IMG/VR virus record: IMGVR_UViG_2576861193_000002
Length of the DNA stretch: 64,000 nucleotides
From: a virus
Lineage: Duplodnaviria; Heunggongvirae; Uroviricota; Caudoviricetes
Direction: 5' to 3' (one strand)
The number at the start of each line of letters is the position of its first letter. Positions within the stretch are counted from its first letter, which is position 1. The notes beneath the pieces are model-generated. The model worked only from the letters and a program-made list of their open reading frames with translations. It ran no database searches and had not been told where the DNA came from. This document shows, piece by piece, positions 7,089 through 25,929 of the stretch. The translations under genes and the position numbers were made by a program.

Positions 7089-7139
7089 ATGATTACGCAC
7101 AACTTCAATACCCTGGACTTACTCACCAGTCCTGTCTGG
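7089..7139 (+). pseudogene. dgcM: 5' fragment of diguanylate cyclase gene dgcM (codons 1-17), separated from rest of gene by prophage
   Basis: ATG then MITHNFNTLDLLTSPVW, frame ends 2 codons into prophage DNA; reading frame resumes at 62966 (VWIVSPFEEQ...). Confidence 0.6.
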
Positions 7140-7140
7140 A
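7132..7140. repeat. left junction repeat (candidate att core) CTGTCTGGA
   Basis: Same 9-mer at 62961-62969; both lie in dgcM reading frame. Confidence 0.5.
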
Positions 7141-7209
7141 ATGGTTAGCACTATTAATAATAATTTATAAAACAGTATGTTATAGTGCTTTTGTTTTTGG
7201 TTTTGGATA

Positions 7210-7232
7210 TTTGGTCACTATTTGGTACACAA
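7210..7232. repeat. 23-bp direct repeat TTTGGTCACTATTTGGTACACAA (candidate integrase arm-type site)
   Basis: 22/23 identical copy at 62798-62820 just upstream of int start. Confidence 0.45.
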
Positions 7233-7262
7233 AAAGAAACGAGGCGTTAGCCTCGTTTCGCG
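7226..7262 (-). terminator. terminator after tail-fibre gene (end of late operon)
   Basis: GAAACGAGGC-ttag-GCCTCGTTTC hairpin followed by T-run on minus strand. Confidence 0.45.
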
Positions 7263-7288
7263 CGGCGATGTTCTTCGCACATCACCTC

Positions 7289-9478
7289 TTATTCTTCGCT
7301 TCCGGTCAACTGCCGGACAAGCTCTTCAAGTTTTGTGATCCGTTCATCCATGACGGCAATGTTAGCTCGTAGGCTGGCATTCTCCCCTTCCAGTTCGGTG
7401 ACGCGGTTATCTGTTTCGTGTGCCACCTGGACAAGTAAGCCAGTCACTGCGGCATAATCAACATTGAGGTAACGCGATTCTTCGCGTAGCTCGTTGCCAT
7501 CAATGGTCGGCCCCTGCAACTCTTTGCCGTAATGAGTAAACGATCCAACAGCCTCCGGTAGCGCCTCCATAACCTCCTGAGCGATAACACCAGCGTAAGG
7601 CAGGCCGTTTTCCTTAAGGGTATAAGTGTACCCGTTCATTTTGCGGATGGCTTCAGTTGCGTTATTTATAACCTGAATGTTGTCTTTAAGGTCGCGATCA
7701 GATGATTGATTTACTGATAAGCAAGTAACGCTTCCAGACGCTTTAATATTTGTCACATCAAGTCTGTCGTTTGCAAAATTATATGAGATTGCTGTGCTTG
7801 TGCTTCCGGCATCATCATAATTGCTTTTATGAATAAACCAGTTTCCGCCATTAGCAATAAGGGTATAAGCTGGCGTGTTAGCCGGGCGATCTGTTTCATC
7901 AAATCTTATTGCAGGGTTAGCACTATTTATTTGCAAAGGTTTTTCAAGCGTTGATTTCAGTATCGCACTATCTACAATTAAATTACCTTCTGAGTTAAGG
8001 TTTAGATATTTTGAATCACCAGTTGAACCATTGTATACAAACCTTATTGTTAATTGACTTTTCCCTTCTGATAAAGTCTGAGCATACATATAAGCTGCAA
8101 GACGCAAATCGTCGTTAGTTGACAATAGTCTTGTGCGGAGGATTCCACTAGATGTGCCTACGTCTGTCGAATCACTATATTTATCAAGAAATAGACTATT
8201 AAGCTGAGGGCTATTATCCCTGCCCAACCCTAGATTAGTTCTGGCATTATCAAGGCTTGTCGCACCAGTGCCGCCTTGAGCAACGGCTAACGGTATCCAT
8301 TTTTTTTGCGTATCGCTGTAACAACCCCACGATGAGGCAGATAAACCAAGTCGCATAGAGTTGTCAGCGTTATATATCCATGTTTCGCTGCCCCACTCAC
8401 TAACCCTTTCGGTTGATACCATTTTTTTCCATGCGCTCCAACCTTGCCCGCCATACGACCTTCTGTAACTAATTTTCATATCGTTAAACAAATAATAGGT
8501 CTGCATGCACCCTTCTGAATCACCTGCGCCAGTTTTTTGCACTAACAATGAACCAGCAATCTGTATGGGGTAATTTAATTCAGGTTTTGCGTTTGCTGAT
8601 AATACTTGATGATAAAATCCTGCTGCGCTTCCTTTTAAGTCATCAAGATTCTGTCTATCGCTAAGGGTAGTTTTTGCATCATGCATAACCATTAGGTTTT
8701 TTCTGGCTTCTGCTGCGTTTCCAGCACCAGTACCGCCATACATAACGCCTAACTTAAGTGCCCCGGCGGTTGAATAAGCACCCCACCCAGCGTTATTAAC
8801 GAAGATGTAATTTTTATTTTCTCCGTCCCGCAACTGAGTTTCTTTTGAGGAACCACCATTTTGAAGCAAGCGATTTACTTCATCCTTGCGTGCGTGGCGT
8901 GTCCAGTTCTGGCCTGATGCTGCGACCCATGTATAAGTATAAAGTGATCGCGTAGACCAACCGACAAAGACGCCAGCATATGAAGGCGACGCATCCCGCT
9001 GACAGATAAATCCACTCAAAAATGATTCGCCAGCCGCTACGGAAGGAAAGCCCTTAGTCGTTTCCTTTATGCGCAAAAAGCCAACGTAAGAAGACGGATC
9101 GCCTGATATATCGACGCAATCTCGCGGCTCTGGACCCAAGCCAATATTGCTGCCATCTATTGCGCTTGATATTTCATCTTCCTTTTCCTGATAAAAACGA
9201 AGTGTTTCAGCTACATCCTGGGCAAGCCCATCAACTGAGATCGAATCAGAAAGCAGAATACTAAATTTTGTTCCGGCAGGGATGGCGGGGTTAGCCGCTG
9301 GCGTTACTGACAGTTCAGTACCGCTTTTAATTTCTGTGATGGTAAAGATCTGCACCGGATTGCCGATTGCAATGAGCGTGCAACCTACACGAATGAGAGA
9401 AAGCGGCGCGGAAAAGTTTGTTCCCGTGCCTGTAACAGTATTGCCATTAATGGCAATTGTTCCAGTTGTGTAAATCAT
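7289..9478 (-). CDS. side tail fibre/tailspike with C-terminal intramolecular chaperone (peptidase S74-like) domain
   Basis: 729 aa; C-terminal ...DLKDNIQVINNATEAIRKMNGYTYTLKENGLPYAGVIAQEVMEALPEAV... then coiled coil, resembling fibre self-cleaving chaperone domains. Confidence 0.75.
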   Translation of the reverse strand: MIYTTGTIAINGNTVTGTGTNFSAPLSLIRVGCTLIAIGNPVQIFTITEIKSGTELSVTPAANPAIPAGTKFSILLSDSISVDGLAQDVAETLRFYQEKEDEISSAIDGSNIGLGPEPRDCVDISGDPSSYVGFLRIKETTKGFPSVAAGESFLSGFICQRDASPSYAGVFVGWSTRSLYTYTWVAASGQNWTRHARKDEVNRLLQNGGSSKETQLRDGENKNYIFVNNAGWGAYSTAGALKLGVMYGGTGAGNAAEARKNLMVMHDAKTTLSDRQNLDDLKGSAAGFYHQVLSANAKPELNYPIQIAGSLLVQKTGAGDSEGCMQTYYLFNDMKISYRRSYGGQGWSAWKKMVSTERVSEWGSETWIYNADNSMRLGLSASSWGCYSDTQKKWIPLAVAQGGTGATSLDNARTNLGLGRDNSPQLNSLFLDKYSDSTDVGTSSGILRTRLLSTNDDLRLAAYMYAQTLSEGKSQLTIRFVYNGSTGDSKYLNLNSEGNLIVDSAILKSTLEKPLQINSANPAIRFDETDRPANTPAYTLIANGGNWFIHKSNYDDAGSTSTAISYNFANDRLDVTNIKASGSVTCLSVNQSSDRDLKDNIQVINNATEAIRKMNGYTYTLKENGLPYAGVIAQEVMEALPEAVGSFTHYGKELQGPTIDGNELREESRYLNVDYAAVTGLLVQVAHETDNRVTELEGENASLRANIAVMDERITKLEELVRQLTGSEE

Positions 9479-9612
9479 CGCAATGACTCCATTTTGTTAA
9501 TTAACGGAATAATTCTACCATTTTGTGATCTGTGTTGCATTTTATGCTTATACAAAATGTATATTATAATAAACAAAGCAACAAATACACACAATCTGAG
9601 TGGGGTGTACTA

Positions 9613-9831
9613 ATGAAAATGGTAACAATTATCGCTGTTGCGGCTATTCTGGTTGGTTGCGCTGACACTAATCGACACAACGGTCATTGTGCAACTAGCG
9701 CATACGGTGTCTGCTATGAAAGATGGGTTGATGGTGTAATGGTTCCTGCCGGGGAAATTTGTCGGGTGTATGATGGCACTGATGGCCATAGTGGCAAGAC
9801 TAGAGATTGCGGAAGTAAGGAGTGGTATTAA
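9613..9831 (+). CDS. small Cys-rich lipoprotein (candidate superinfection-exclusion / receptor-masking protein)
   Basis: Internal Met of ORF 9532..9831: MKMVTIIAVAAILVGC lipobox; 6 Cys in mature part; opposite strand to adjacent tail fibre. Confidence 0.55.
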   Translation: MKMVTIIAVAAILVGCADTNRHNGHCATSAYGVCYERWVDGVMVPAGEICRVYDGTDGHSGKTRDCGSKEWY

Positions 9832-10766
9832 TGGGTGCAGGTATATATATTGGGCTGAATGACGGACGCCCTGCAATGGAAATAACAAGCGGGTTGCGTG
9901 CGTTCTCACACGCTGGAGATTTCAATATTCAAAAGGCCGGGTTTTTGCAAAGTTTTTCCATAAAGGATTTAACTGGCGGAGATAAGTTTTTAATCCCAAA
10001 GGCAGGCGCTTACGCGTTTGAGCTTGACCGGGGCGTTGAAACATATTTTATATCAGGCTTTAGTGCTTCTGGTGGCACGGCAAGGATTTCAATTAGTGGT
10101 GAGAACGCATATTCTGATAGGATCACTAATTTTAGCGGTAGCGTGTTTGAGATAGCAAAGGCGTCTACTGGTGAGGGTATATTAGTTGCAGATAGCACAG
10201 GTTTTGCATCGATAACGACTAACGATACATTGATGTCATGTTTATGGGTTGGAAGTGTTAGCTTTACTGGGTCTTACACTATGCCAGTTGCTGGCGTTCC
10301 TTTCGGTAACTGGAGCAATAGCGGAGTTTCAGTTGAGTTTGACGGAAACAATAAATTGATCTGTACAAACACAAACACCTCTTCCACTGGTGACACATAT
10401 GGATCTGTGGCGATGAATTTGGCTATTTTTAGCAAATCACCGCCATCACCTGGCGACGGAATAACCATCATCAATAAAAATAATCAATGCGTGTTTTCAA
10501 CAAAACAAAGGCCATTGGTTGTTAAGGGATTTATAACGTTATCTAATAGTTATCAGAATATTGGTGACGCATTCTTCCCAATATTGAGATGCGGCTTTAA
10601 TACCAGAGCCATTAAAGCATACAAGGAGCTAAGATACAAAGGCATTATGATGTACAATGGGCAGGTGAAAAGCGGAACAGGATCAAGGATTGTCAGGTAT
10701 GAAATAGGTAACAGGCCGGATTTCTGTATAGGTATGAAGCTACCTTATTTGCCAGCAATTTATTAA
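9831..10766 (+). CDS. hypothetical Gly/Ser/Thr-rich beta protein, translationally coupled to lipoprotein
   Basis: AAGGAG RBS, ATG overlapping upstream stop (TAATG); 311 aa; no recognised motif. Confidence 0.5.
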   Translation: MGAGIYIGLNDGRPAMEITSGLRAFSHAGDFNIQKAGFLQSFSIKDLTGGDKFLIPKAGAYAFELDRGVETYFISGFSASGGTARISISGENAYSDRITNFSGSVFEIAKASTGEGILVADSTGFASITTNDTLMSCLWVGSVSFTGSYTMPVAGVPFGNWSNSGVSVEFDGNNKLICTNTNTSSTGDTYGSVAMNLAIFSKSPPSPGDGITIINKNNQCVFSTKQRPLVVKGFITLSNSYQNIGDAFFPILRCGFNTRAIKAYKELRYKGIMMYNGQVKSGTGSRIVRYEIGNRPDFCIGMKLPYLPAIY

Positions 10767-10806
10767 TAAAATTAGTTGCCCCAACCATTTGGCGGGGCAA
10801 CAGTTA

Positions 10807-13800
10807 TTACCAAACACCAATAATAATTTTACCACCACTAGGAAGATTTACCGTAATGCCGTTATTGTTAATAATTACCCGTCCGTCACTATTGCGTACA
10901 TCGAAATTTTGATTGCCTTTAACAATGACGTTACCCCTTACGGTGACTTCGTTGAATTGCGCCCATCCATCTTTGTTAATCATCCAACCTTTTGAGTCTT
11001 GAACAAATACGGTTGACTGGATTTGCTGCGCTATTTTTGCAGTACCGATAGATCCGTCTTTAATAAACGCTTCTTTAACATACATTGCATCATTGGTGGT
11101 ATAGAAAGGTGATGTGTATGTGCCGTTTGCTGCGGTCATCAACACGAAGCGGTCAACGAGGAAAATACACTGCGATTGAACGTTAGTGCCGCTACCAGTC
11201 AGCCCAAGAGACATACCTGTTGCATACTTCATGCCGTTGTTGTCGGTTGCCAGCTTGATAGAGTACGTCGCATCAACATTACCTTTGAAGTCGGTTAACG
11301 CTTTCGACGTCGTCTGTATCGCTGTTGTGTTCCCGTTAACGGTCACTGTTAGCTGATCGATTTTGCTTGATAATGCCTCGTCAGCCGTCGCCATTGCCTG
11401 CGACCATTCTGTAATATTTGAGTTTACAGAATCGAAAGACGCTGAGATCTGGCCAAATTTTTCCGCGCTTGATGCTTCATGCGTAGAAAGTGCCGTTGAC
11501 ACCTCTGATACCTTCGAATTAATCGTACTGGTAAGCGATGAGTTAAGACTACTGATTGCGTCAGTACGGGCCTTCGTTTCGTCTGCAATAGCCTTATCAA
11601 TACGGGTTACGTTACTTGTCACCTTACTATCAAGCGTGGAAATTGATGCGTTCACTCCGCTGATAGCCTGGGCGCGGGCGCTTGATTCGTCGGCAATAGC
11701 CTGATCCAGCCTGCTAACTTCAGATTCAGTGTTGTTTTCAAGCGTGCTAATACTTGCATTCACTCCACTGATAGCTTCAGTTCTTGCGCTTGTCTCATCT
11801 GCAATGGCTTTATCAAGACGGCTTATTCTTGAATCCGTTTTCTTGTCTAGCGCTGACACTGAGGCATTTACTCCGCTGATAGCCTCGCTGCGTGCGCTGG
11901 TTTCGTCTGCAATTGCCCTATCAAGGCGGTTGACGCTTGCTTCCGTCTTCCTATCAAGATCGGTGATCGATGCGTTTACGGAGCTAATGGCTTCCGCTGT
12001 GGCTTTTTTCTCCTCTGCTATAACATTGTCAATACGGTCAATTTGCGCGTTGGTTTCTTTGCGGCCTTTCTTGTATTGGGCCGTGAGAGTAACCCGCGTG
12101 TTGGTTTGAGCAATAGAGTTGTTGATAAGTGCGATTGAGGCGTTTTGCAGACTTGCTTTAGTCTGATTTATTTCGTCGCTGTTTTTGTCAACGTTATTTT
12201 CAACAGTGCCAAGCTCCGCGCTGATGCCCGATATTGCCTGTGCACGGGCGCTTGATTCATCTGCAATTGCCTGATCAAGACGTTTAACGCTGGCGTTTGT
12301 GCTATTTTCAAGCGTTGTTAAATCAGCTTTAACCTCTGTTATTGCGGCGCTTCTTGCCTGCGTTTCATCTGATATTGCTTTATCAAGACGGGAAACGCTC
12401 GCGTCAGTTTTGCTTTCAAGATTGCTTATTGAGGCGTTAACGTCGCTAATGGCCTGGGTGCGGGCACTGGTTTCATCTGCAACCGCTTGATCCAGTCTGC
12501 TTACTTCTGATTCTGTATTGTTTTCAAGTGTGCTAATACTTGCATTCACGCTACTGATAGCGTCTGTGCGTGCTTTTGTTTCGTCTGCTATCGCTTTATC
12601 AATGCGGTTAATGTTGCTTGTAACTTTGCCGTCAAGCGTGGAAATTGAGGTATTCACGCCGCTGATGGCTTCAGTTCTTGCACTGGTTTCATCTGCAATT
12701 GCCTGATCCAAGCGTTTTACGCTGGCGTCAGTTTTCTTGTCTAGCGTTGAAATACTTGCATTTACGTCGCTGATGGCTTGAGTCCGCGCGCTAGTCTCGT
12801 CAGCGATTGCTTGATCAAGGCGGTTAACGCTTGCGTCAGTTTTCTTATCAAGATTGCTTATTGAAGCGTTTACACCGTTAATAGCTTCAGCGCGGGCGCT
12901 GGCCTCGTCAGCTACTGCGCGCTGCACGTTAGAAATCTGACCTTTAAGGTTGGAGTCCATCGTATTCATTTCTGCTGTGATGGTTTCCAGTGATTCCGCT
13001 GTCGCTTTTTTCTCTTCAGCGATAACGTTGTCAATGCGGTCGATTTCCGCTTTAGTCTCTGTCCTGCCTTTCTTGTACTGAGCGGTAAGAGTTACGCGCG
13101 TGTTTGTCTGTGCAAGTGAGTTATTAATAAGAGCAAGTGACGCGTTTTGCAGGCTTGCTTTTGCTTGCGCCAGTTCGCTGCCAACTTTTTCGCTGGACAC
13201 TTCTAATGAGTCAATTCTTGCCTCATGCTGTCCAATATCATCGGCGTTTTCCTCAACCTTTTTATAAAGATCTTCCGTTTCTTTTTTCAGTGTGTCCGTA
13301 TCAGCTTTTATGGCCCCTGTTTCTGTGATTAGGCCGTCCGTATCAATCCTCAAATCGTCAGTGATGTTTGTCAGGTTGTCCGTGTCAACCCTCAAATCGT
13401 CAGTGATGTTTGTCAGGTTATCAGTTGCAGTTTTGAGGTTGTCGGTAGCAGTTTTAAGGTCATTTGTAGCGCTTTCGATAAGATCAGCGCGGTCGCCAAG
13501 ATCTTTAATGTCGCTAATCATCCCCTTAAACTGTTCTGAATTAATTACGTCTTTTGTGACGTAGTCGCTAATTTCATCGAAGTTTTCAGTTGGTTTGCCT
13601 GATGCCTCAACGAAATCTGACACGCCAAAAGCGTTACGTGTACGAATATAAACGTAATAGGTGTGCCCCGTGTTCATGCCGCCAAAAGTCCACTGATAGC
13701 CGCGCCCGGTAAACTGCGCTGATGTGGTTACTTTTGATGGATCTGTGATCTGGTTTTCACCTGCGAAGTAAAATTCGTATGCTGTATCAGTGGTCAGGGT

Positions 13801-15990
13801 TGTTTTGCTAATCGGATACACTGTTGCCTGGAAAACACCAGGAACCCAATTAACGCCGACCGGGGCCGCTGGTGCACCAATAACCAGGTCCACAATACTT
13901 TCCGCACCCTTCATGCCAGTGTCATTACGCCCGCGAATACCAAGCGTGTAGCTGCCAGTATCAAGGCCATAAAACTCATAGCGGTAATTCGTTGTTTCAT
14001 AAGTTGCCACCACGCGGCCTTCGGCGTTATATACGCGTATTTCAAAGGTCAGGCGATGCGTTGTCGTCTGTGTTTCCCATGTAGCGCGACATTGAACAGT
14101 TTCAGAACCAACATTTAACACCTTCAGGTTTTCAATGTTCGGCACGCGGAAGTGATTAAGCGTGTCGTTGTTTACCTCAAAGATTGCGCCTTCATCGACT
14201 ACAGCCTGTTTATGTGGGTCATGCTGTGCTGCCTCGATGGTGTACACGCTGTTGTTTTCAGTTTCTGCTACGCTGATGATTCGGCACAGGACGGGTTTTG
14301 CTGCGTCAGTTGATACAGCAAAAACAGTTCCGTTACGAATCCACGCGGGGGCGGCTGCAAGGGTGATATTGTTTCCGTTAACTCCGGTGATCTGGTGTTT
14401 TTTAAACTTGCCATCACTATCAAGTAAACTAATGGTATCGCCTGCGGCGATGTATTCCGAATCAACCTTATCTACCGTTATCACCTTGCCATTATTCGCC
14501 ACGATACGACCGCCAAAACGAGCGCCTGCGCGGTTATTGTCGAGTATCTCGATAATATCCCCAGGGGTGAAGTGAATTGCGTCGCGGGCCATTTTAAACG
14601 TGAATTTTGATGGTTCGCGTTTTGCTGTTTCTATCAGCCACTTGCCAGCGCGGTATGCCTGCCCGCGTGAAGTGCAACCGAAAGCCTCTAGCGTGGTTTC
14701 GTTATAACCATCGCGGGCGATCAATTCATCATCTGCCACGTATTCTTTTGATTGCTCCCAACCGTTTTCCGGGTCAGTCCATGACACGATAACTGCGTTG
14801 TAAGATTCTGCACGGGCAATACTTGAACGAGTAAACGCGCCATCAACAACGTTAGCATTCGTGATGGTAGCAATTGGATCTTGCGGTGCATCAATCATCA
14901 CCGTAAGGCGCTGCCCATCCCATAACGCGATACCACGGAACATGCCTGCGATATTGTCCAGTAAGTCGCGGGCGCTCATTTGCTCAGTTATGTAAGCATT
15001 AAGCGTCATGCGAGGTTCAAAGCCGCCGTAACCGTCGTTTACCAACTGGTCGCAGTATTGAGAAAGCGTATATAATGCGCCGTCGTCAACATCAATGTAA
15101 CCAGCATGACGTGCAAGCCCGAAACGTTCATTTTTAACCAGATACCGGAATAGCCACGCAGGGTTATTGGTGTACGCTTTTTTAAATCCACCTAGCCATA
15201 AACCTGAATACGTGCGCGTTTCAGGGTTATAGTTGTCAGGCACATCAACAATCAGTCCGCGCAGATGATAGGTGCGGGTAGGTGTATCAGTATACTGGTC
15301 ATGGTCAATTACAGCACCAGCTACAGCGGTATGAGGGTAAGACAGGTTATCGTCGATTATTTCGCTGTAGCTACTCCACCGCGTATCATTACGAAGAAGA
15401 TCGCTTTTGCTGTCTGCTGTTACGCGACGAACGCGAATATCAAACGGCTTTTCATCCGGCGCTTTGATAATGTGAGCTTCCAGATATTCACCGCTTTGTT
15501 TACCGGGACCAATGTGTATACCTTTAACCGGCGACCACGTAGAAGATGATGACGGTTTAACATCAACCACCAACATAACGGATGTATTATATTGATTGCC
15601 CTCATCATCTGACTGAACAAGAGCATCAACGCCAAGATTTAACCTTACGCGGGTAACGTTTGGATCTGAAACAGTCCTTATTATTGGCGTGTCGTGAGTT
15701 ACCTTTGCGTTGACAATAACGGTTGATTCGATGGCATTAAAACCATTAATCGGCGATTGGTCAGCCGTGCCGTTGCGCCAGGCTATACTAATCCCAGGAA
15801 TTGATGTGTTTCCGTTTGCGTCAGTGATAGGCGTGTCATTAAGCATTACGTTGTTTAATGGCGCATTCTGGTTAACTACTCCAAAAATTGGTCCTTCACT
15901 TAGAATATCTAAAACCCGATAAAATTGTTTATGAAACAAATTATCATTAAGCAAAGTTGGTGTTTTTGCTTTACCGCCGCCACTAGACAT
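10807..15990 (-). CDS. central tail fibre / host specificity protein J-like with ~650-aa tandem-repeat coiled-coil insertion
   Basis: 1727 aa; N-terminal ~850 aa resembles lambda J as recalled (YHLRG..V.NYNP.TR.YSG.W.G); aa ~870-1520 are 29-30 aa repeats (SARTQAISDVNASISTLDKKTDASVNRLDQAIADET). Confidence 0.85.
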   Translation of the reverse strand: MSSGGGKAKTPTLLNDNLFHKQFYRVLDILSEGPIFGVVNQNAPLNNVMLNDTPITDANGNTSIPGISIAWRNGTADQSPINGFNAIESTVIVNAKVTHDTPIIRTVSDPNVTRVRLNLGVDALVQSDDEGNQYNTSVMLVVDVKPSSSSTWSPVKGIHIGPGKQSGEYLEAHIIKAPDEKPFDIRVRRVTADSKSDLLRNDTRWSSYSEIIDDNLSYPHTAVAGAVIDHDQYTDTPTRTYHLRGLIVDVPDNYNPETRTYSGLWLGGFKKAYTNNPAWLFRYLVKNERFGLARHAGYIDVDDGALYTLSQYCDQLVNDGYGGFEPRMTLNAYITEQMSARDLLDNIAGMFRGIALWDGQRLTVMIDAPQDPIATITNANVVDGAFTRSSIARAESYNAVIVSWTDPENGWEQSKEYVADDELIARDGYNETTLEAFGCTSRGQAYRAGKWLIETAKREPSKFTFKMARDAIHFTPGDIIEILDNNRAGARFGGRIVANNGKVITVDKVDSEYIAAGDTISLLDSDGKFKKHQITGVNGNNITLAAAPAWIRNGTVFAVSTDAAKPVLCRIISVAETENNSVYTIEAAQHDPHKQAVVDEGAIFEVNNDTLNHFRVPNIENLKVLNVGSETVQCRATWETQTTTHRLTFEIRVYNAEGRVVATYETTNYRYEFYGLDTGSYTLGIRGRNDTGMKGAESIVDLVIGAPAAPVGVNWVPGVFQATVYPISKTTLTTDTAYEFYFAGENQITDPSKVTTSAQFTGRGYQWTFGGMNTGHTYYVYIRTRNAFGVSDFVEASGKPTENFDEISDYVTKDVINSEQFKGMISDIKDLGDRADLIESATNDLKTATDNLKTATDNLTNITDDLRVDTDNLTNITDDLRIDTDGLITETGAIKADTDTLKKETEDLYKKVEENADDIGQHEARIDSLEVSSEKVGSELAQAKASLQNASLALINNSLAQTNTRVTLTAQYKKGRTETKAEIDRIDNVIAEEKKATAESLETITAEMNTMDSNLKGQISNVQRAVADEASARAEAINGVNASISNLDKKTDASVNRLDQAIADETSARTQAISDVNASISTLDKKTDASVKRLDQAIADETSARTEAISGVNTSISTLDGKVTSNINRIDKAIADETKARTDAISSVNASISTLENNTESEVSRLDQAVADETSARTQAISDVNASISNLESKTDASVSRLDKAISDETQARSAAITEVKADLTTLENSTNASVKRLDQAIADESSARAQAISGISAELGTVENNVDKNSDEINQTKASLQNASIALINNSIAQTNTRVTLTAQYKKGRKETNAQIDRIDNVIAEEKKATAEAISSVNASITDLDRKTEASVNRLDRAIADETSARSEAISGVNASVSALDKKTDSRISRLDKAIADETSARTEAISGVNASISTLENNTESEVSRLDQAIADESSARAQAISGVNASISTLDSKVTSNVTRIDKAIADETKARTDAISSLNSSLTSTINSKVSEVSTALSTHEASSAEKFGQISASFDSVNSNITEWSQAMATADEALSSKIDQLTVTVNGNTTAIQTTSKALTDFKGNVDATYSIKLATDNNGMKYATGMSLGLTGSGTNVQSQCIFLVDRFVLMTAANGTYTSPFYTTNDAMYVKEAFIKDGSIGTAKIAQQIQSTVFVQDSKGWMINKDGWAQFNEVTVRGNVIVKGNQNFDVRNSDGRVIINNNGITVNLPSGGKIIIGVW

Positions 15991-16549
15991 ATAGACCCCC
16001 TGTTTCGTGTAATTTCGTGTATCCTGCGCCAGCTTTATTTAGCTCTTCAATCATGAATGACCGCCACGCGACGGCGGCATTAATAGCCATTTCAAGTCCA
16101 CCGCACGCTATAACGCTAAATGATTTACTAACTCTTTTGTCGTTATCAGCGGTGATACGTGCTCTAATAGATCTCCCTTCTGCGTGCCAACATATCCCAA
16201 ATGGCAATCCGCTCTCCCTTGTCGCGCGACCTATGGTCATATTTCTGGCGTTACCTTTTTTATCTGTTACGCGTATGTTATTGAATTTATTATTAAGCCC
16301 ATTACCATCAATGTGATCGATGATCTCACTGCGTTTTAATTTTCTGCCACTGCATAATTCGTAAACAATCCGGTGAGCATAATAGCGACGGCCCTTCCAT
16401 GTGATTTTCCAGTACTTATTGCCGCTTTTTGCCGCTACTATTTTTCCTGCCGCATCGCCAGTCCTCGCCGTTCTGCTGTTAGCGGTGACTTTCCACCTTA
16501 AACATGAAGGAGAATCTTCATCATAAACAAACAATTCAGACCAGTTCAC
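15983..16549 (-). CDS. HNH homing endonuclease with AP2 DNA-binding domain
   Basis: 188 aa; EIIDHIDGNGLNNKFNN HNH motif; inserted between tail genes I and J. Confidence 0.8.
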   Translation of the reverse strand: MNWSELFVYDEDSPSCLRWKVTANSRTARTGDAAGKIVAAKSGNKYWKITWKGRRYYAHRIVYELCSGRKLKRSEIIDHIDGNGLNNKFNNIRVTDKKGNARNMTIGRATRESGLPFGICWHAEGRSIRARITADNDKRVSKSFSVIACGGLEMAINAAVAWRSFMIEELNKAGAGYTKLHETGGLYV

Positions 16550-16561
16550 TGTAACCCCCTA

Positions 16562-17092
16562 TTAACTTACAACGTCTAAGGCGTCTCTGTTGTTACTTGT
16601 ATCTATGCCTAACGATCCGACGTTTGAACCTATTTTCATTTCACCCAACAGGATCGGCACTGGCCTACCCTGGCCTACCTTGTTTTCAATGCTGGTGTAG
16701 GTGTTGTTAGATATGGTGTTATCTTGTGCGCTTTCTGCTGATGTCTTTATCTTCATATTGCGAGACATGAAGATCGAGAACGCAACACTAACAACCGAAA
16801 CACCGATCAAAATCCAGCCTACAACGCCAATTCCTGCAATACCACCTTCCACCACTGGCGCAACAATGACTGTAGTCCCATCCGGGTATTTACTGTTAAC
16901 CGCTGCTGGCGCGGTCTTTTCGTCATAATCTTTCCCGGCAATTCGTAAGCGCAATGGTGTGTTTAAAAACGCCTTCTTGAACTCCTGATTCTGTGCGGTC
17001 AATAAGCCAAGTCCCTGCGCTGGCGTATCAACGTTTAAACACACCTTGCCGTAATATCTTCGAAGATTGCCCGTAAATCTAAATTTGAGCAT
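16562..17092 (-). CDS. tail tip assembly protein I-like
   Basis: 176 aa; position after K-like gene; Gly-rich TM segment; start uncertain (overlaps K). Confidence 0.6.
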   Translation of the reverse strand: MLKFRFTGNLRRYYGKVCLNVDTPAQGLGLLTAQNQEFKKAFLNTPLRLRIAGKDYDEKTAPAAVNSKYPDGTTVIVAPVVEGGIAGIGVVGWILIGVSVVSVAFSIFMSRNMKIKTSAESAQDNTISNNTYTSIENKVGQGRPVPILLGEMKIGSNVGSLGIDTSNNRDALDVVS

Positions 17093-17766
17093 TTGTCAGA
17101 TCTCCATATTGAATGCGTTTGTCTAACATAAGCGGGCCGCATTTGCTCGCGGCGGCTTAATAGTCCGGCATTGTCATGATGCAAAACGGTGTTATCTCCC
17201 AGGTAAATCATCGCGTGACATGGGTCAGCACCCTTAAACGGCTGACGGATAATCACGTCACCCGGCTGAATGCTTTGCGCGTCAACCATGAAAAACCCGT
17301 TCAATGGCAGGTTTTTTATATACAGGTTTTCCCCACGCAGCCACCACCCATCGTGGCGTTCAAAGTCCGGTAGATCCACGCCGCAAAGGTGATAGGCGTC
17401 ACGGAAAAGCGAGTAGCAGTCTGTTTTACCGTGCTCAAATTTACGACCTAACAGGTGAGCTACAGGGCGGAACTTTCTTACCCTGCCACCGGAACATAAA
17501 AACCACGGCAGGCCGGAAATAACTTGCTGTTGTCGATCCCGTGCTGACAATACTAATGAATTGTCAGTATGGGAGTGAAAAACTGCAGTTATAACGCCTA
17601 ATTCGTCAGCTTTGATATAATCGTCAGGCGAGATTTTAAAGCTGTTGTGAGGCGTTTCAGACACGTTTAAGCATGGGTAAAAATAATCGTTATCTATCAC
17701 CAGCCCGCACACCTCCTCTTCCTGGTGGGCTGCTGCATAGCGAATCATTTTATCTTCAAGTGCCAT
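17035..17766 (-). CDS. tail tip assembly protein K-like (NlpC/P60 + JAB/MPN)
   Basis: Internal start MALEDK... of ORF 17035..17862; HSH..D motif and Cys/His peptidase signature. Confidence 0.75.
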   Translation of the reverse strand: MALEDKMIRYAAAHQEEEVCGLVIDNDYFYPCLNVSETPHNSFKISPDDYIKADELGVITAVFHSHTDNSLVLSARDRQQQVISGLPWFLCSGGRVRKFRPVAHLLGRKFEHGKTDCYSLFRDAYHLCGVDLPDFERHDGWWLRGENLYIKNLPLNGFFMVDAQSIQPGDVIIRQPFKGADPCHAMIYLGDNTVLHHDNAGLLSRREQMRPAYVRQTHSIWRSDKCSNLDLRAIFEDITARCV

Positions 17767-17768
17767 AA

Positions 17769-18473
17769 TTAACCCACCTTGCTCGATCCAGGAAAACATG
17801 AAATTGGTAACGGATTCGGGCGCGGAAAACGCAAACGGCAACCGCTTAGGCGGTGGCTGCATTTGTCCATCCTTGGATCGTTGGTTGATTCGTCTTTATC
17901 GGTAGCTACAGGGCCGCCACTATATCCGCAACCGTCGCCGCGATACTGCCACTGGCAAACGTCAGCGAGAATTGTGCGCCCAGGGATAACAGCTTTATCA
18001 GCATCAATTGGCGTTGACAGTTCATATTGCACCTGGTCGGCTGTTTCTTCGCTCATCGCCTCAACGACGTAAAAAGATACAGCCTCAATAGATGGATCTG
18101 CATCTGGGTTGCCGTTGGGGAAGTTGATAGCGTCCAGGTATTTTACTTCCACCTGGCGGCGCGTAACCTTCATTCCTCGAAGGTCGTTAAAATCGTTATT
18201 CATCCCAGTGATTAGCCCGCCAATGTTGGCTACTACCATTTGGGGGCGTGAGTAAACGCCTTCGTTTTTCATTTCGAAGCCAGTCGCCTCGATTGGGTAG
18301 CTGTTGTAGGCCACTCCCTTCCAGATAACCGGGCCGTAATAGCCATTCGCGCCGGAATGGAAGCGGATAATCTCGCCACCCAGGGGCGTGAGGTCTAATT
18401 CAAACAAGTCAATTACCGCACCGACTCCGGCATCCACGGAATCAATAATCATTTCTGTAGGTATGCTGCGCAT
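17769..18473 (-). CDS. minor tail protein L-like
   Basis: 234 aa; CQWQYRGDGCGYSG Cys cluster as in lambda L. Confidence 0.8.
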   Translation of the reverse strand: MRSIPTEMIIDSVDAGVGAVIDLFELDLTPLGGEIIRFHSGANGYYGPVIWKGVAYNSYPIEATGFEMKNEGVYSRPQMVVANIGGLITGMNNDFNDLRGMKVTRRQVEVKYLDAINFPNGNPDADPSIEAVSFYVVEAMSEETADQVQYELSTPIDADKAVIPGRTILADVCQWQYRGDGCGYSGGPVATDKDESTNDPRMDKCSHRLSGCRLRFPRPNPLPISCFPGSSKVG

Positions 18474-18525
18474 TTTATCACCTTGTAATTTGTGATCGAC
18501 GTCACGCTAAATCATACCAAAACGG

Positions 18526-18554
18526 TTGATAGCGCTTTTTACAATATGTATATT
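18526..18554 (+). promoter_or_regulatory. sigma70-like promoter for plus-strand moron cassette
   Basis: TTGATA-17 bp-TATATT; overlaps palindrome TACAATATgtATATTGTA. Confidence 0.4.
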
Positions 18555-18570
18555 GTACTCAAAAGGAAGC

Positions 18571-18756
18571 ATGGTTAACAAAATGGCGCGGAGGTGTGAG
18601 ATGGTTGATAAGGTGTGGAGGTTGAAGGTATTCCTGGCGGATGGCAGGGAAATGACTGTAGCTCTGTATAAGGATGAAGGCGAGGCACTTACTGACGCGC
18701 TTTTACTCGCTGAAGACGAACGCGTTTTGGGGTACAGGATCGAACCCGTCAAATGA
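18571..18756 (+). CDS. moron hypothetical protein
   Basis: Internal Met of ORF 18526..18756; alternative start 18583. Confidence 0.4.
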   Translation: MVNKMARRCEMVDKVWRLKVFLADGREMTVALYKDEGEALTDALLLAEDERVLGYRIEPVK

Positions 18757-18768
18757 GGGTTTAACAAA

Positions 18769-19119
18769 ATGCAAAAATACAGCTTAGATGTGTGGACTGA
18801 TAAATGTGAATGGGAATGCATGGGCCTATTTGACACATATGCTGCGGCGCGTGATGAAGGTCGCGAATTACTTCTCTGTTGGTCTAACGCTCGTGATTTT
18901 GATATTACTCCGGTCCAAGTACCGGATAAGGTGGAAGAGATGAACCCTAAAGATATTGATGTTAGCTTCAATGTTAACTTTGCTGACTCTATGGATCAGT
19001 CTTGCCCTGGTGAAATACACGCAAAAGGTTTCCCCGCTGACGATCCAGAAGCAAAACGCGAATACGAAAAAGCGGCAAAAGATTTCTGTATCGACAATTT
19101 GTCTGCGTTCGATAAATAA
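18769..19119 (+). CDS. moron hypothetical protein (116 aa, acidic)
   Basis: ORF with GAGGG RBS; no recognised domain. Confidence 0.5.
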   Translation: MQKYSLDVWTDKCEWECMGLFDTYAAARDEGRELLLCWSNARDFDITPVQVPDKVEEMNPKDIDVSFNVNFADSMDQSCPGEIHAKGFPADDPEAKREYEKAAKDFCIDNLSAFDK

Positions 19120-19128
19120 GGCGGCAAC

Positions 19129-19377
19129 ATGGGGCGGCGCAATCACGGTGATTATGTGTACACGTTGAAACAGGCCGCCCGCCTCATCGGTTATCATGAG
19201 CACGAATTTATTGATTTGCTGATCGAGCGCGGGATTTTGTATCAGGTTTGTTTAACGCTGTACCCGAAAGCTAAGTACCTACAAGAAAAGTTATTCATCA
19301 TTATGACGGATGAAAACCAGGTCAATCACTCATTCGTCACTGATAAAGGCGTTAATTATCTGCGTGATAACTTATAG
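19129..19377 (+). CDS. moron hypothetical protein, possible HTH
   Basis: 82 aa; YTLKQAARLIGYHEHEFIDLLIERGIL helix-turn-helix-like. Confidence 0.45.
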   Translation: MGRRNHGDYVYTLKQAARLIGYHEHEFIDLLIERGILYQVCLTLYPKAKYLQEKLFIIMTDENQVNHSFVTDKGVNYLRDNL

Positions 19378-19530
19378 GTGACAGATTATAAAATAGAAGT
19401 TTTGGCGCTAATAATAATGGGACTGATAGTATTTGGCGTTCACGCTGTCGATTGGGACTGGGCGGCGATAGCCAATAACATGGCGCACGCTCACCCAATG
19501 AGTTTGATGTACATTAACTACTGACAAGAA

Positions 19531-19560
19531 AAACCCCGCACGAAGCGGGGTTGTTTTTAT
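19531..19560. terminator. bidirectional rho-independent terminator closing moron cassette
   Basis: AAAAACCCCGCacgaaGCGGGGTTGTTTTTAT: GC hairpin with A-run 5' and T-run 3'. Confidence 0.6.
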
Positions 19561-19754
19561 ACATCATCAACCAAAAATAAAACTTCCTTCCCTTCCCTGG
19601 ATCTGCACCCCACGTACCCATCACCCATATCATGTAGATACCAGGTATCGCCATTGTCAGCCTTTACAGTAAGGTCGTTGATCTCGTAGTCGTCAAATAA
19701 TGTAAAAGCGTCAGTTTTGTCCACTACACAAGTCCCGTACATATTAACCCCCAC
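19557..19754 (-). CDS. hypothetical small protein downstream of M
   Basis: 65 aa; start overlaps M stop; stop lies in terminator. Confidence 0.35.
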   Translation of the reverse strand: MGVNMYGTCVVDKTDAFTLFDDYEINDLTVKADNGDTWYLHDMGDGYVGCRSREGKEVLFLVDDV

Positions 19755-20107
19755 TAGCTGACAACTTGCTCAAATGTTGCGTTTAGCGTGTATACAGGCC
19801 CGTCCTTTGTCATACTCCAGCTACGGCAAACAAAAAGCCTTTGCACGCCATCCATAGACGGCGACCAGTAAAAAGCCTCGACAGCGCCGCGCGCCCTCAA
19901 GAATGCTTCTGCCTGGATCGCTACGTTCCCACCATCACCGCATCCTGCACTACTGCCTTTAAAGACCAGGGTGTAGCTATCAAGCAACGTGTTAATCCCT
20001 TTCGCCTGGCGCTGTTCATAACCATCACCAAGTTTAATGACAGATACGTTTGGTTCCCTGGTCACGCTGTAGCTTCTTTGCGGCGTCCATCTGAAAACTT
20101 CTGGCAT
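19754..20107 (-). CDS. minor tail protein M-like
   Basis: 117 aa; C-terminal ...TFEQVVS resembles lambda M ...EFEQVVN as recalled. Confidence 0.75.
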   Translation of the reverse strand: MPEVFRWTPQRSYSVTREPNVSVIKLGDGYEQRQAKGINTLLDSYTLVFKGSSAGCGDGGNVAIQAEAFLRARGAVEAFYWSPSMDGVQRLFVCRSWSMTKDGPVYTLNATFEQVVS

Positions 20108-20140
20108 GATTCCCCCTATAAGTTACATATTGCATACATC

Positions 20141-20181
20141 TTTACGCGCTTCTACGCGAAAAATGAGAAATTCATCACAAG
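20141..20181. repeat. conserved ~40-bp element (copy 1) upstream of M
   Basis: TTTACGCGcttCTACGCGAAAAATgAGAAAtTC; second copy at 32856-32893 upstream of portal. Confidence 0.5.
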
Positions 20182-20276
20182 AATTATAACCAGTTTACAA
20201 AATGGCTTCACATAAGGCGTGACAAGATGTATATAGTAAGCAAGAAGAAAAAGCAGTACCGACAAAGGGGGGCAAT

Positions 20277-20432
20277 ATGGAACGCTATGTGGTTGTGATG
20301 CTGAACAAAGCATTCGAACAGGTGGAAGTTGCGATTGTGAAGGGCTTTGATGATGCATTCAAATACGGTCAATTTATGATGAATGCGAAGGAAAATGAGT
20401 ACCGTGATTTCTTCCTAAAAGTAGTCAACTGA
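20277..20432 (+). CDS. small hypothetical protein (51 aa)
   Basis: AAGGGGGG RBS then ATG; MERYVVVMLNKAFEQ...; coordinates approximate. Confidence 0.3.
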   Translation: MERYVVVMLNKAFEQVEVAIVKGFDDAFKYGQFMMNAKENEYRDFFLKVVN

Positions 20433-20452
20433 TTGATTGCGTGGGGTGAGTT

Positions 20453-20707
20453 ATGAAATTGGTAATGATTGGCAAAAACCTGAAAGCTCAGAAAAACGCG
20501 CCGGAACATGTAGTTAAAAAAGCAAAGGAACTTTTGAACGCGTTTTTAAACAAGAATGCGTCACCCAAAAAATTGAAAGACGGTTACGGCTACGCCTTCC
20601 GCGCCAATTTAGACTGGCGAGTCTATAGCCAGGATCTGAAGGAGTGGGTGATTGTTGAACACCATAAATTCAATGAATTGTCTGGCGTTCGCGGTTGCCA
20701 TAAGTAA
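20453..20707 (+). CDS. hypothetical basic protein (84 aa)
   Basis: GGGGTGAG RBS; MKLVMIGKNLKAQKNAPEHVVKKAKELLNAF... Confidence 0.5.
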   Translation: MKLVMIGKNLKAQKNAPEHVVKKAKELLNAFLNKNASPKKLKDGYGYAFRANLDWRVYSQDLKEWVIVEHHKFNELSGVRGCHK

Positions 20708-20794
20708 GGCGGGATATGGATGACGATAAATTCACCCGGCGGGAGATCTGGAATATTTAGTTGGTGATTTTCGTGAGGGGATATATCTCGCGGA

Positions 20795-21754
20795 ATGGTC
20801 GGATATAAAATGGGTGTGATTATGGCGCGAAAAATGACACATGAAGAACATATTGCAGATATAGCAAATGTCAATCCTCGTGTTGATATTTTAGGAGAAA
20901 TTACAGGCTGCAATGATAAGGTGTCGTGTCGTTGCAGAGTTTGTAACCACAAATGGCGTACTACGCCGCACAGCCTTAAGGCTGGCAGGGGCTGCCCCGA
21001 ATGTAAAAGAACAAAGATAGCACGAATAAAACAACTATCACATAACGATCATGTTGCTGCAATTGCTAATGTTAATCCATTTGTTGAAGTGCTAGAAAAA
21101 ATTGTTAATGTAAAGAAAAAGATCGCATGTCGTTGTAATAATTGCAAAAACATATGGATGACTACGCCAAATGATCTCAAAAACGGTCACGGCTGTCCGA
21201 AATGCTCTGGCGTAGCGAAGCTGTCACATGAAGAGCAGATTGCAGCTATTGCGAAAGTTAACCAAAATGTTGATGTAATAGGCAATATTGTTAATGACAA
21301 AACAAAAGTATCATGCCGCTGCAAGGCTTGCGGTCATGTGTGGTCGGCTACGCCTAACGACCTTAAAAATGGGCGCGGCTGCCCGAAATGCGCGAAACGA
21401 GGGTTTTTATCCCACGAACACGGAAAACTTTACATCATGGTTGATGATCTTGAAGTGCCAACAATGATGAAAATCGGCGTGAGCGTTAAGGAGAACGAGC
21501 GAAGAAATAAAGTATTAAAAAGCGCACATAAAGCAGGTGTCAGAATCCCTGATTTGTATGTCGTGAAAACGTGGGTGGGGCCAACTGAAAAAGTACAAGA
21601 ATTAGAAAGCACGATGCATAAGGCTTTTAGCAATTATAAAATTAACTTCCCTGTAAAATTTGATGGCAGTAATGAATTTTTCTACTACAGGCCGGAAGTA
21701 TTCAGCATGGTAGAAAGTACATACAGTGATATTGTAAATAAAAATGCGGCATGA
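20795..21754 (+). CDS. triple zinc-ribbon + T5orf172 (GIY-YIG-like) domain protein
   Basis: Three ~57-aa repeats each with CRCxxC...GxGCPxC; C-terminus GKLYIMV..MKIGVS..ERRNKVL...ESTMHKAF...NEFF matches T5orf172 pattern. Confidence 0.6.
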   Translation: MVGYKMGVIMARKMTHEEHIADIANVNPRVDILGEITGCNDKVSCRCRVCNHKWRTTPHSLKAGRGCPECKRTKIARIKQLSHNDHVAAIANVNPFVEVLEKIVNVKKKIACRCNNCKNIWMTTPNDLKNGHGCPKCSGVAKLSHEEQIAAIAKVNQNVDVIGNIVNDKTKVSCRCKACGHVWSATPNDLKNGRGCPKCAKRGFLSHEHGKLYIMVDDLEVPTMMKIGVSVKENERRNKVLKSAHKAGVRIPDLYVVKTWVGPTEKVQELESTMHKAFSNYKINFPVKFDGSNEFFYYRPEVFSMVESTYSDIVNKNAA

Positions 21755-21794
21755 ATATTCAGCCCACCACCATTAGTGACGGGCTTATTCTTAG

Positions 21795-24002: not shown

Positions 24003-24010
24003 GATTGCTA

Positions 24011-24694: not shown

Positions 24695-24700
24695 AGAAAG

Positions 24701-25917: not shown

Positions 25918-25929
25918 GTTTGTTACCTC

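What the first reader, a model, noticed from the sequence alone, without database searches (positions are those of the whole stretch)
7089..7232. Prophage is integrated inside the coding sequence of the diguanylate cyclase gene dgcM
The first 17 codons of dgcM (MITHNFNTLDLLTSPVW) lie at 7089-7139. The reading frame resumes at 62966 (VWIVSPFEEQLIYANSAAKLLMQDL...). The same 9-mer CTGTCTGGA sits at both junctions (7132-7140 and 62961-62969). 23-bp direct repeats (7210-7232, 62798-62820) lie just inside each end, consistent with arm-type sites of the adjacent P4-type integrase. Lysogeny would therefore inactivate a c-di-GMP cyclase.
Basis: partly seen in the sequence, partly recalled or inferred. 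Interest (0 to 1): 0.6.

Follow-up and report, generated by a model that had tools for sequence, protein, structure and literature searches.

The report
Known mEp021-type prophage splitting dgcM
A complete 55.8-kb temperate phage of the published mEp021 (mEpimmI) group sits exactly inside the start of the E. coli biofilm-signalling gene dgcM. This insertion site, and this very prophage (E. coli strain FBP1), were already described in a 2025 paper, so the finding is correct but ordinary.

Summary
dgcM codons 1-17 lie at 7089-7139 and the rest of the gene resumes at 62963. The 9-mer CTGTCTGGA occurs only at the two junctions. Deleting 7141-62969 gives a sequence 100% identical over 1001 nt to intact K-12 dgcM.

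The insert is an intact prophage of the mEpimmI group:
- Its integrase is 98.8% identical to that of mEp021, and its repressor 98%.
- All but two of the 52 mEp021 genes compared have a full-length or partial counterpart, with no stop codons.

The mEp021 GenBank record is linearised exactly at this core. Metagenomic phage contigs show the contiguous attP. About 20 of 5426 complete E. coli genomes carry relatives at the same site.

The two 23-mers match at 22 of 23 positions. They are conserved at both arms even in relatives that integrate elsewhere, which supports the arm-site reading.

Integration in the 5' end of ydaM (= dgcM) was published and PCR-verified for mEp021 (PMC11893012). The window is the end of contig AYKC01000020.1, which is that paper's prophage "FBP1".

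- dgcM is cut a second time, by IS1 at 63948.
- RefSeq annotates dgcM in lysogens as intact, using ATC starts.

Loss of DgcM function is inferred, not tested. Verdict: already known, low interest.

The parts
7089..7139 (+). dgcM (ydaM) 5' fragment, codons 1-17. After the junction it reads on into phage DNA as ...VW-NG-stop.
   Evidence: The composite is 100% identical to K-12 dgcM.
7132..7140 (+). Left copy of the 9-bp att core CTGTCTGGA.
   Evidence: only two copies in the window. mEp021 record starts with its reverse complement TCCAGACAG.
7141..62960 (.). mEpimmI-group prophage (prophage 'FBP1'). The insertion is 55,829 bp when one core copy is counted.
   Evidence: About 77% of its length aligns with mEp021, almost all of it collinear, at 82-97% nucleotide identity. 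50 of 52 mEp021 CDS have a counterpart without stop codons (45 over their full length, 5 partial or paralogous); two have no true counterpart (MTase: no hit; HNH gene 10: only a 26% paralogous match). The window is identical to the end of contig AYKC01000020.1, which is listed in PMC11893012.
7210..7232 (+). Far-arm copy of the 23-mer TTTGGTCACTATTTGGTACACAA: two tandem 11-bp units, the candidate arm-type Int sites.
   Evidence: It is conserved in integrase types Ia, Ib and II.
7236..7259 (-). Intrinsic terminator of the tail-fibre gene. It marks the outer limit of attP on this side.
   Evidence: the hairpin is conserved in all relatives.
7289..9478 (-). Tail fibre / tail tip gene, the last phage gene at this end. 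It carries a Peptidase_S74 chaperone domain.
   Evidence: Only the N-terminal 108 aa resemble mEp021 gp82.
51118..51765 (-). Immunity-I repressor (Rep021-like).
   Evidence: 98% identical over all 198 aa of the mEp021 repressor.
61400..61630 (+). 76-aa helix-turn-helix protein overlapping the 3' end of int: candidate excisionase / recombination directionality factor (inferred).
   Evidence: HTH_23 hit. 98.7% identical to mEp021 gp02.
61570..62784 (-). Tyrosine integrase, 404 aa, type Ib of PMC11893012, with P4-type architecture.
   Evidence: Arm-DNA-bind_3 73.7 bits and Phage_integrase 76.6 bits. 98.8% identical to mEp021 Int.
62798..62820 (+). Int-side copy of the 23-mer (TTTGGTCACGATTTGGTACACAA). 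It ends 12 nt upstream of the int start codon, so it could also serve in int autoregulation.
62829..62856 (+). Two GAACGGAT direct repeats 20 bp apart (62829-62836 and 62849-62856), between the arm site and the core. They are mostly conserved in types Ia and Ib (window, mEp021, STEC308 and Ecol_244 differ by one or two bases in each copy). They are possible accessory-protein sites (inferred).
62961..62969 (+). Right copy of the att core CTGTCTGGA.
62963..63947 (+). dgcM body from codon 16 to codon 343: PAS domains and the first 91 of 161 GGDEF profile positions, including GGEEF.
63948..64000 (+). Left end of an IS1 element that truncates dgcM. The window and the contig end here.
   Evidence: Identical to the end of the annotated IS1A in E. 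coli PI24. The dgcM match stops at 63947 in all E. coli genomes.

Best explanation
The window is the last 64 kb of contig AYKC01000020.1 from E. coli strain FBP1. A temperate siphovirus of the mEpimmI group (archetype mEp021) has integrated here through its type Ib tyrosine integrase.

How the integration works:
- Int recombines a roughly 300-bp attP with an attB that lies within codons 15-18 of dgcM (ydaM).
- attP consists of the core CTGTCTGGA flanked by two direct 23-bp double arm sites, about 70-90 bp away on one side and about 140-160 bp away on the other.
- Strand exchange within the 9-bp identity duplicates the core.

Consequences for dgcM:
- The sigma-S-dependent dgcM promoter and the first 17 codons stay on one side. 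They now encode a 19-aa peptide.
- The PAS-PAS-GGDEF body is left 55.8 kb away, facing the int promoter region, with no promoter, ribosome-binding site or canonical start codon.
- Lysogens are therefore expected to be dgcM-null. DgcM activates MlrA at the csgD promoter, so they should also be impaired in curli and biofilm matrix induction.
- Precise excision would restore the gene.
- In this strain an IS1 additionally truncates the GGDEF domain, so dgcM would stay dead even after excision.

Status of the steps:
- Shown: the precise insertion, the identity of the phage, attP/attB/attL/attR, the domain make-up of Int, and conservation of the arm repeats.
- Inferred: Int binding to the 23-mers, the role of the 76-aa HTH protein as excisionase, and the loss of DgcM function and of the curli phenotype.
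For: Precise insertion
- The composite empty site is 100% identical over 1001 nt to K-12 dgcM-zntB.
- The core is unique to the two junctions.

Identity of the phage
- Int is 98.8% identical to mEp021 Int.
- The genome aligns with mEp021 over about 77% of its length, almost all of it collinear.
- All structural, lysis, replication and regulatory genes are present without stop codons. The repressor is 98% and the Gp17 antiterminator 100% identical.

Attachment sites
- The mEp021 record starts at TCCAGACAG and ends where the window's left junction begins.
- IMG/VR phage contigs carry the contiguous attP: far 23-mer at -278, core at -185 and near 23-mer at -37 from the int ATG. Two other contigs show the dgcM junction.
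- About 20 of 5426 complete E. coli genomes have the same left junction and 16 the same right junction.

Arm sites
- The 23-mers are conserved in types Ia and Ib. They are also conserved in type II phages (mEp010, MagusPhagus), whose cores and targets differ.
- Between type Ib and type II integrases, the arm-binding domain is 67% identical and the core-binding region only 34.5%.
- Pfam finds Arm-DNA-bind_3 plus Phage_integrase.

Literature
- PMC11893012 reports ydaM as the main att locus and PCR-verifies it in W3110(mEp021). It lists AYKC01000020.1 as prophage FBP1, integrase group Ib.
- The window is identical to the end of that contig.
- YdaM is described as essential for csgD expression in PMC3874044.
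Against: - No phenotype of dgcM lysogens has been measured, here or in PMC11893012. That paper contains no curli or biofilm assay.
- RefSeq annotates dgcM in lysogens as an intact CDS of 398 or 393 aa, but only by invoking ATC start codons.
- A truncated product starting at TTG 63023 or ATG 63026 (about residue 39) cannot be excluded if there is read-through transcription.
- Binding of Int to the 23-mers is unproven. The int-side copy ends 12 nt upstream of the int start codon and could equally be an operator.
- The simple promoter scan found nothing in 62700-63100, not even the int promoter. Its silence is therefore weak evidence.
Confidence: 0.93

Rival explanations
1. dgcM remains functional in lysogens. 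The phage end would supply transcription and a start codon, either the ATC starts used by RefSeq or an internal TTG/ATG near residue 39. The insertion would then only swap or trim the N-terminus, as phages e14 and 21 do for the 3' end of icd.
For: PGAP annotates non-pseudo dgcM CDSs of 398 aa (STEC308) and 393 aa (Ecol_244) that start at or just before the junction. An ORF from TTG 63023 exists in the window.
Against: - The in-frame stretch between the stop at 62942 and the junction contains no ATG, GTG or TTG. The annotated starts are ATC, which is not a recognised E. coli initiation codon.
- No promoter-like site faces dgcM in 62700-63100, and int is transcribed away from it.
- The phage-side sequence next to the core differs between types Ia and Ib, so no conserved replacement N-terminus exists.
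- In this strain IS1 removes the end of the GGDEF domain anyway.
Confidence: 0.05
2. The prophage acts as a reversible genetic switch (active lysogeny). Regulated, non-lytic excision in particular conditions would restore dgcM and curli production, and re-integration would turn them off.
For: Excision at the 9-bp core would restore dgcM exactly. The prophage is intact, with int and a candidate excisionase. A faint band for episomal mEp021 was seen in lysogen cultures in PMC11893012. Another temperate phage family targets mlrA, the partner gene in the same csgD switch.
Against: There are no data on regulated excision. The faint episomal band is what spontaneous induction gives for any temperate phage. 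Relatives with other integrases use abgT or mppA, so the target is not tied to c-di-GMP. In this strain IS1 makes restoration impossible.
Confidence: 0.07
3. The 23-mers are not integrase arm sites. They would instead bind another protein, for example the 76-aa HTH protein or a host factor, or act as an operator for int transcription.
For: The int-side copy ends 12 nt upstream of the int start codon, a typical operator position. An identical 22-mer lies just upstream of integrase genes with an unrelated N-terminal domain (DUF6538) in two marine alphaproteobacterial MAG contigs.
Against: - The two copies lie in direct orientation on both sides of the core at lambda-like distances.
- Each is a tandem pair of 11-bp units.
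- They co-vary with the conserved Arm-DNA-bind_3 domain, while the cores and core-binding regions diverge.
- The far-arm copy is not next to any promoter and follows a terminator.
- The two roles are not exclusive, since P4 Int also autoregulates (own knowledge).
Confidence: 0.15

Closest known systems
mEp021 / mEpimmI prophages integrated in ydaM (PMC11893012, Front Microbiol 2025)
   Same: Same phage group, same integrase type (Ib), same core, same attB in the 5' end of ydaM/dgcM. The window's prophage is the 'FBP1' entry of that paper.
   Different: Nothing essential. The paper does not describe the 23-bp arm repeats, an excisionase, the IS1 in FBP1's dgcM or any biofilm phenotype.
Stx-converting prophages inserted in mlrA (yehV) of E. 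coli O157:H7
   Same: A temperate phage interrupts a gene of the same DgcM-PdeR-MlrA module that switches on csgD. Prophage insertion in mlrA limits curli and biofilm (PMC3874044).
   Different: A different phage family, integrase and target gene. For mlrA the phenotype is documented; for dgcM it is only inferred.
Active-lysogeny elements (Listeria phi10403S in comK; B. subtilis SPbeta in spsM and skin in sigK) - from own knowledge
   Same: attB lies inside a coding sequence, and precise excision restores the gene.
   Different: There is no evidence here for regulated, non-lytic excision. The target varies among close relatives (abgT, mppA).
Phage P4 integrase and its attP - from own knowledge
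   Same: Arm-DNA-bind_3 N-terminal domain plus tyrosine recombinase catalytic domain. Direct arm repeats lie on both sides of the core, and a small HTH protein is encoded next to int.
   Different: P4 targets the 3' end of a tRNA gene with a longer core. Here the target is a protein-coding gene with a 9-12 bp core, and no tRNA gene is present in the window. The best matches outside the mEpimmI group reach only 31-46% identity.
e14 and phage 21 in icd - from own knowledge
   Same: Site-specific integration inside a housekeeping coding sequence.
   Different: Those phages carry a substitute 3' end that keeps icd intact. The mEpimmI phage end provides no substitute 5' end for dgcM.

Membership tests
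mEpimmI phage group (PMC11893012) | Immunity-I repressor (Rep021-type, highly conserved in the group) | tested here: met
   Window 51121-51714 is 98% identical over all 198 aa of the mEp021 repressor.
mEpimmI phage group (PMC11893012) | BLASTn homology to mEp021 (the authors' criterion: coverage of at least 60% and identity of at least 70%) with conserved gene order | tested here: met
   About 43 kb of 55.8 kb aligns at 82-97% identity, almost all of it collinear. 50 of 52 CDS have a counterpart without stop codons (45 over their full length, 5 partial or paralogous); two have no true counterpart (MTase: no hit; HNH gene 10: only a 26% paralogous match).
mEpimmI phage group (PMC11893012) | Gp17 N-like antiterminator | tested here: met
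   100% identical over 96 aa.
mEpimmI phage group (PMC11893012) | Type I integrase paired with an att site in the 5' region of ydaM | tested here: met
   Int is 98.8% identical to mEp021 Int. The core lies in dgcM codons 15-18. The contig is listed by the authors as FBP1, group Ib.
P4-type tyrosine integrases | C-terminal tyrosine recombinase catalytic domain with the R...HxxR...H...Y residues | tested here: met
   PF00589 scores 76.6 bits against a cut-off of 27.1. The motifs CRVGE, HDLRRT, GHS and VYDKY are visible in the translation.
P4-type tyrosine integrases | N-terminal Arm-DNA-bind_3 (former DUF4102) domain | tested here: met
   PF13356 scores 73.7 bits against a cut-off of 27, covering residues 2-88.
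P4-type tyrosine integrases | Arm-type repeats in attP that are bound by the N-terminal domain | tested here: inconclusive
   Conserved direct 23-mers lie on both arms and co-vary with the conserved N-terminal domain. Binding itself cannot be tested with these tools.
Prophage-mediated gene disruption / active lysogeny | attB inside a coding sequence, and precise excision restores the ORF | tested here: met
   In silico excision gives 100% identity to intact dgcM.
Prophage-mediated gene disruption / active lysogeny | Regulated excision without lysis that switches the host gene back on | not testable with these tools
   No data. In this strain IS1 at 63948 would keep dgcM broken.

The most novel reading that the evidence does not exclude
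mEpimmI lysogeny would be a selected, possibly reversible, way of switching off the DgcM-PdeR-MlrA-CsgD curli/biofilm switch. This would parallel Stx phages in mlrA: two unrelated temperate phage families converging on the same c-di-GMP module. Conditional excision would restore matrix production.
Probability: 0.08. Interest if true: 0.55.

Novelty: already known. Interest (0 to 1): 0.12.

Why it matters
DgcM is the local c-di-GMP source that activates MlrA at the csgD promoter, so a phage that lands in it should make lysogens curli- and matrix-deficient. Such phages are reported to be as common as lambdoid phages in human faeces and occur in about 0.4% of complete E. coli genomes, so this could contribute to natural variation in biofilm formation.

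The insertion site is already published, however. What remains open is only the phenotype, which is untested, and the mechanistic detail of attP.

One practical point follows. RefSeq annotation of lysogens shows dgcM as intact through ATC starts, so gene-presence surveys of c-di-GMP genes will miss these knock-outs.

Tried and rejected
- Replacement 5' end for dgcM. I looked for a phage-supplied substitute start. There is an in-frame stop at 62942 and only ACA CTA CGA ATC GTT ACT before the core, so no canonical start exists. The RefSeq 'intact' dgcM CDSs in lysogens rest on ATC starts. I reject them as annotation artefacts.
- Outward promoter at the int end. None was found, but the scan is crude.
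- tRNA target typical of P4-like integrases. No tRNA gene is present in the window.
- IHF consensus (WATCAANNNNTTR) in the reconstructed attP. No match.
- Core-type inverted repeats around the core in attB or attP. Nothing convincing.
- Scan of one genome per species (genome contigs) for the 22-mer arm motif, to learn the host range. It found only two marine alphaproteobacterial MAG contigs with no similarity to the window, so it says nothing about host range.
- IS1/dgcM junction in complete E. coli genomes. No genome has it, so the IS1 event is strain-specific.
- Suspicion that the window came from Shigella, raised by the IS1. Rejected: it is E. coli FBP1.

Full report
**Observation**

The sequence is as described.
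- dgcM starts at 7089, and codons 1-17 (MITHNFNTLDLLTSPVW) run to 7139. The frame then reads AAT GGT TAG in foreign DNA.
- CTGTCTGGA is at 7132-7140 and 62961-62969 and nowhere else on either strand of the window.
- From 62963 the dgcM frame continues (VWIVSPFEEQLIYANSAAKLLMQDL...).
- I joined 6640-7140 to 62970-63469, which removes 55,829 bp including one core copy. The resulting 1001 nt match K-12 MG1655 in a single 100% identical piece. 5355 of 5426 complete E. coli genomes cover at least 80% of it in one place.
- The insertion is therefore precise, and the 9-bp repeat is the duplicated crossover region rather than a coincidence.

Two small corrections apply. The V codon starts at 62963, not 62966. 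The two 23-mers (7210-7232 and 62798-62820) are 22/23 identical.

**What the insert is**

The integrase (61570-62784, minus strand, 404 aa) is 98.8% identical to that of Enterobacteria phage mEp021 and Escherichia phage mEp515.
- The structural half of the insert matches only the six mEp phages and MagusPhagus in the phage collection.
- Against the whole mEp021 genome, about 77% of the prophage aligns at 82-97% nucleotide identity, almost all of it collinear, with a few replaced modules.
- 50 of the 52 mEp021 CDS tested have a counterpart without stop codons. 45 of these are matched over their full length and 5 are partial or paralogous.
  - Full length: integrase, HTH gp02, DnaB, replication protein, cro-like HTH, repressor (98%), Gp17 antiterminator (100%), Erf, Q, holin, terminase, portal, the head and tail genes and the 1727-aa J protein.
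  - Partial or paralogous: the tail tip protein gp82 is matched only over its N-terminal 108 aa. The lysozyme is 56% identical and is matched over residues 1-158 of 163. The Zn-ribbon gene 12 and hypothetical gene 08 are matched only in part, gene 12 at a different genomic position.
  - No true counterpart: the methyltransferase has no hit, and HNH gene 10 has only a 26% paralogous match.
- It is therefore an apparently intact immunity-I (mEpimmI) prophage.

**Attachment sites**

- The mEp021 GenBank record begins with TCCAGACAGTAACGATTCG..., the reverse complement of the window's right junction. It ends ...CACTAATCAT where the window has ...GCTAACCAT next to the left core copy. The record is thus linearised exactly at the core.
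- Six IMG/VR phage contigs carry the uninterrupted attP. Relative to the int ATG, the far 23-mer is at about -278, the core at about -185 and the near 23-mer at about -37. Two other contigs show the prophage-dgcM junction.
- Among complete E. coli genomes, 20 share the left junction and 16 the right junction, about 55 kb apart.
- The identity block is 9 bp in the window and in mEp021. It is 12 bp (GTCCTGTCTGGA) in the type Ia prophage of Ecol_244 and in type Ia attP contigs, and 12 bp (CTGTCTGGATTG) in STEC308.
- The block common to all is CTGTCTGGA, so strand exchange must occur within it.

**The 23-mers**

- Each is a tandem pair of 11-bp units: TTTGGTCAC(G/T)A followed by TTTGGTACACAA.
- The pair is conserved in position and orientation in types Ib and Ia. 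It is also conserved in mEp010 and MagusPhagus. Their integrases are only 51% identical, and according to the literature they integrate in abgT. The remainder of attP in those phages is unrelated.
- Between the window's Int and mEp010 Int, residues 1-90 (Arm-DNA-bind_3) are 67% identical. Residues 91-200, the core-binding region, are 34.5% identical, and the catalytic domain is 54%.
- This is the pattern expected if the N-terminal domain reads the conserved 23-mers while the core-binding domain has diverged with the target.
- This supports the arm-site interpretation but is not proof of binding.
- The int-side copy ends 12 nt upstream of the int start codon and may also serve autoregulation.
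- A further direct repeat, GAACGGAT at 62829 and 62849, lies between the arm site and the core. It is mostly conserved in types Ia and Ib. It is a candidate site for the 76-aa HTH protein encoded at 61400-61630, which is my candidate excisionase. Both assignments are inferences.

**Consequence for dgcM**

- The native promoter and 17 codons now end in a 19-aa ORF.
- The PAS/GGDEF body is 55.8 kb away and faces the int regulatory region.
- In frame upstream of the right core there is a stop codon at 62942-62944 and no ATG, GTG or TTG. The first canonical in-frame starts are TTG 63023 and ATG 63026, near residue 39.
- No promoter-like site was found.
PMC11893012 says the insertion 'disrupts' ydaM but reports no biofilm assay.
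- RefSeq annotates dgcM in lysogens (STEC308, Ecol_244) as ordinary CDSs of 398 and 393 aa. By the alignment these start at ATC codons at or next to the junction. I regard them as annotation artefacts that hide the disruption.

**Second hit**

- The dgcM match stops at 63947 in every E. coli genome.
- The last 53 nt of the window are identical to the terminal repeat end of an annotated IS1A.
- DgcM (410 aa) is thus also cut after residue 343, inside the GGDEF domain; 91 of 161 profile positions remain.
- No complete E. coli genome has IS1 at this position.
- In this strain dgcM would stay broken even after prophage excision.

**Provenance and prior knowledge**

- The exact integrase protein is on record only on NCBI contig AYKC01000020.1.
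- The 5431-nt end of that contig is 100% identical to window 58570-64000, and both end at the same base.
- PMC11893012 (Front Microbiol 2025) lists AYKC01000020.1 as prophage FBPI/FBP1 from a pig-faeces E. coli isolated in the Netherlands. It places it in integrase group Ib (Table 1, Table 2).
- That paper reports that most mEpimmI prophages sit in the 5'-terminal region of ydaM. It verifies attL, attR, attB and attP by PCR in W3110(mEp021) and notes the 3-bp difference between motifs Ia and Ib.
- The finding, and this very instance, are therefore already published.

**Context and comparison**

- The left flank is the K-12-like region: recT, ralR with the RalA sRNA, and intR of the Rac prophage, then ttcA, dbpA, the FnrS sRNA and zntB.
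- The closest functional analogue is Stx prophage insertion in mlrA, which limits curli and biofilm in O157:H7. YdaM and MlrA are both required for csgD expression (PMC3874044).
- It is tempting to note that two phage families hit partner genes of one switch. The abgT and mppA targets of close relatives argue against selection for the c-di-GMP target as such.

**Verdict**

Novelty: already known. The residual new details are minor:
- the arm-site architecture and its co-variation with the Int domains;
- the IS1 second hit in dgcM;
- the ATC-start annotation artefact.

Interest is low.

Noticed in passing
window 63948-64000: The end of an IS1 element truncates dgcM after codon 343, inside the GGDEF domain. 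The contig and the window end within the IS. No complete RefSeq E. coli genome has IS1 at this position.
   Followed up: yes
L004 (Ecol_244) 500-991; L006 (STEC308) 495-1001: RefSeq/PGAP annotates dgcM in lysogens as an intact, non-pseudo CDS (393 and 398 aa). It does so by starting at ATC codons at or next to the att core, which hides the prophage disruption from gene-content surveys.
   Followed up: partly
L030 4100-4121 (-) and L031 6215-6236 (+): The same 22-mer (TTTGGTCACNNTTTGGTACACA) occurs in two marine alphaproteobacterial MAG contigs (Robiginitomaculum, Marinicaulis). There too it lies just upstream of an integrase start codon and forms part of three tandem 11-bp units. Those integrases have a DUF6538 N-terminus and no detectable similarity to the window's Int. 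About one hit is expected by chance in 596 Gb, so this may be a chance match among arm-type tandem repeats, but the position is striking.
   Followed up: partly
window 1-2884: The end of a second, Rac-type prophage lies only 4.2 kb from the dgcM prophage. It comprises recT (34-900), ralR with the antisense RalA sRNA (1150-1328, Rfam 225 bits) and the intR-like integrase (1649-2884), next to ttcA.
   Followed up: partly
window 5638-5755 (-): FnrS sRNA (Rfam RF01796, 134.8 bits) lies between dbpA and zntB.
   Followed up: no
window 52618-52705: A 23-bp unit is repeated 3.9 times (also readable as 45 bp x 2) inside the phage replication-protein gene (52324-53325). It is also present in mEp021 and looks like origin iterons.
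   Followed up: no
L011 (E. coli PI24) 530-1300: Another strain has an IS1A inserted just upstream of the dgcM start codon, and strain 600029 has a similar insertion. dgcM is therefore hit independently by different mobile elements.
   Followed up: no
window 15983-16549 (-): An HNH endonuclease gene is wedged between the tail assembly gene I and the J gene. It is 100% identical in protein to mEp021 gp78, although the neighbouring genes are 95-96% identical.
   Followed up: no
window 11756-12912 and 13336-13470: The 1727-aa J (host specificity) gene contains internal 108-bp, 42-bp and 21-bp tandem repeats.
   Followed up: no
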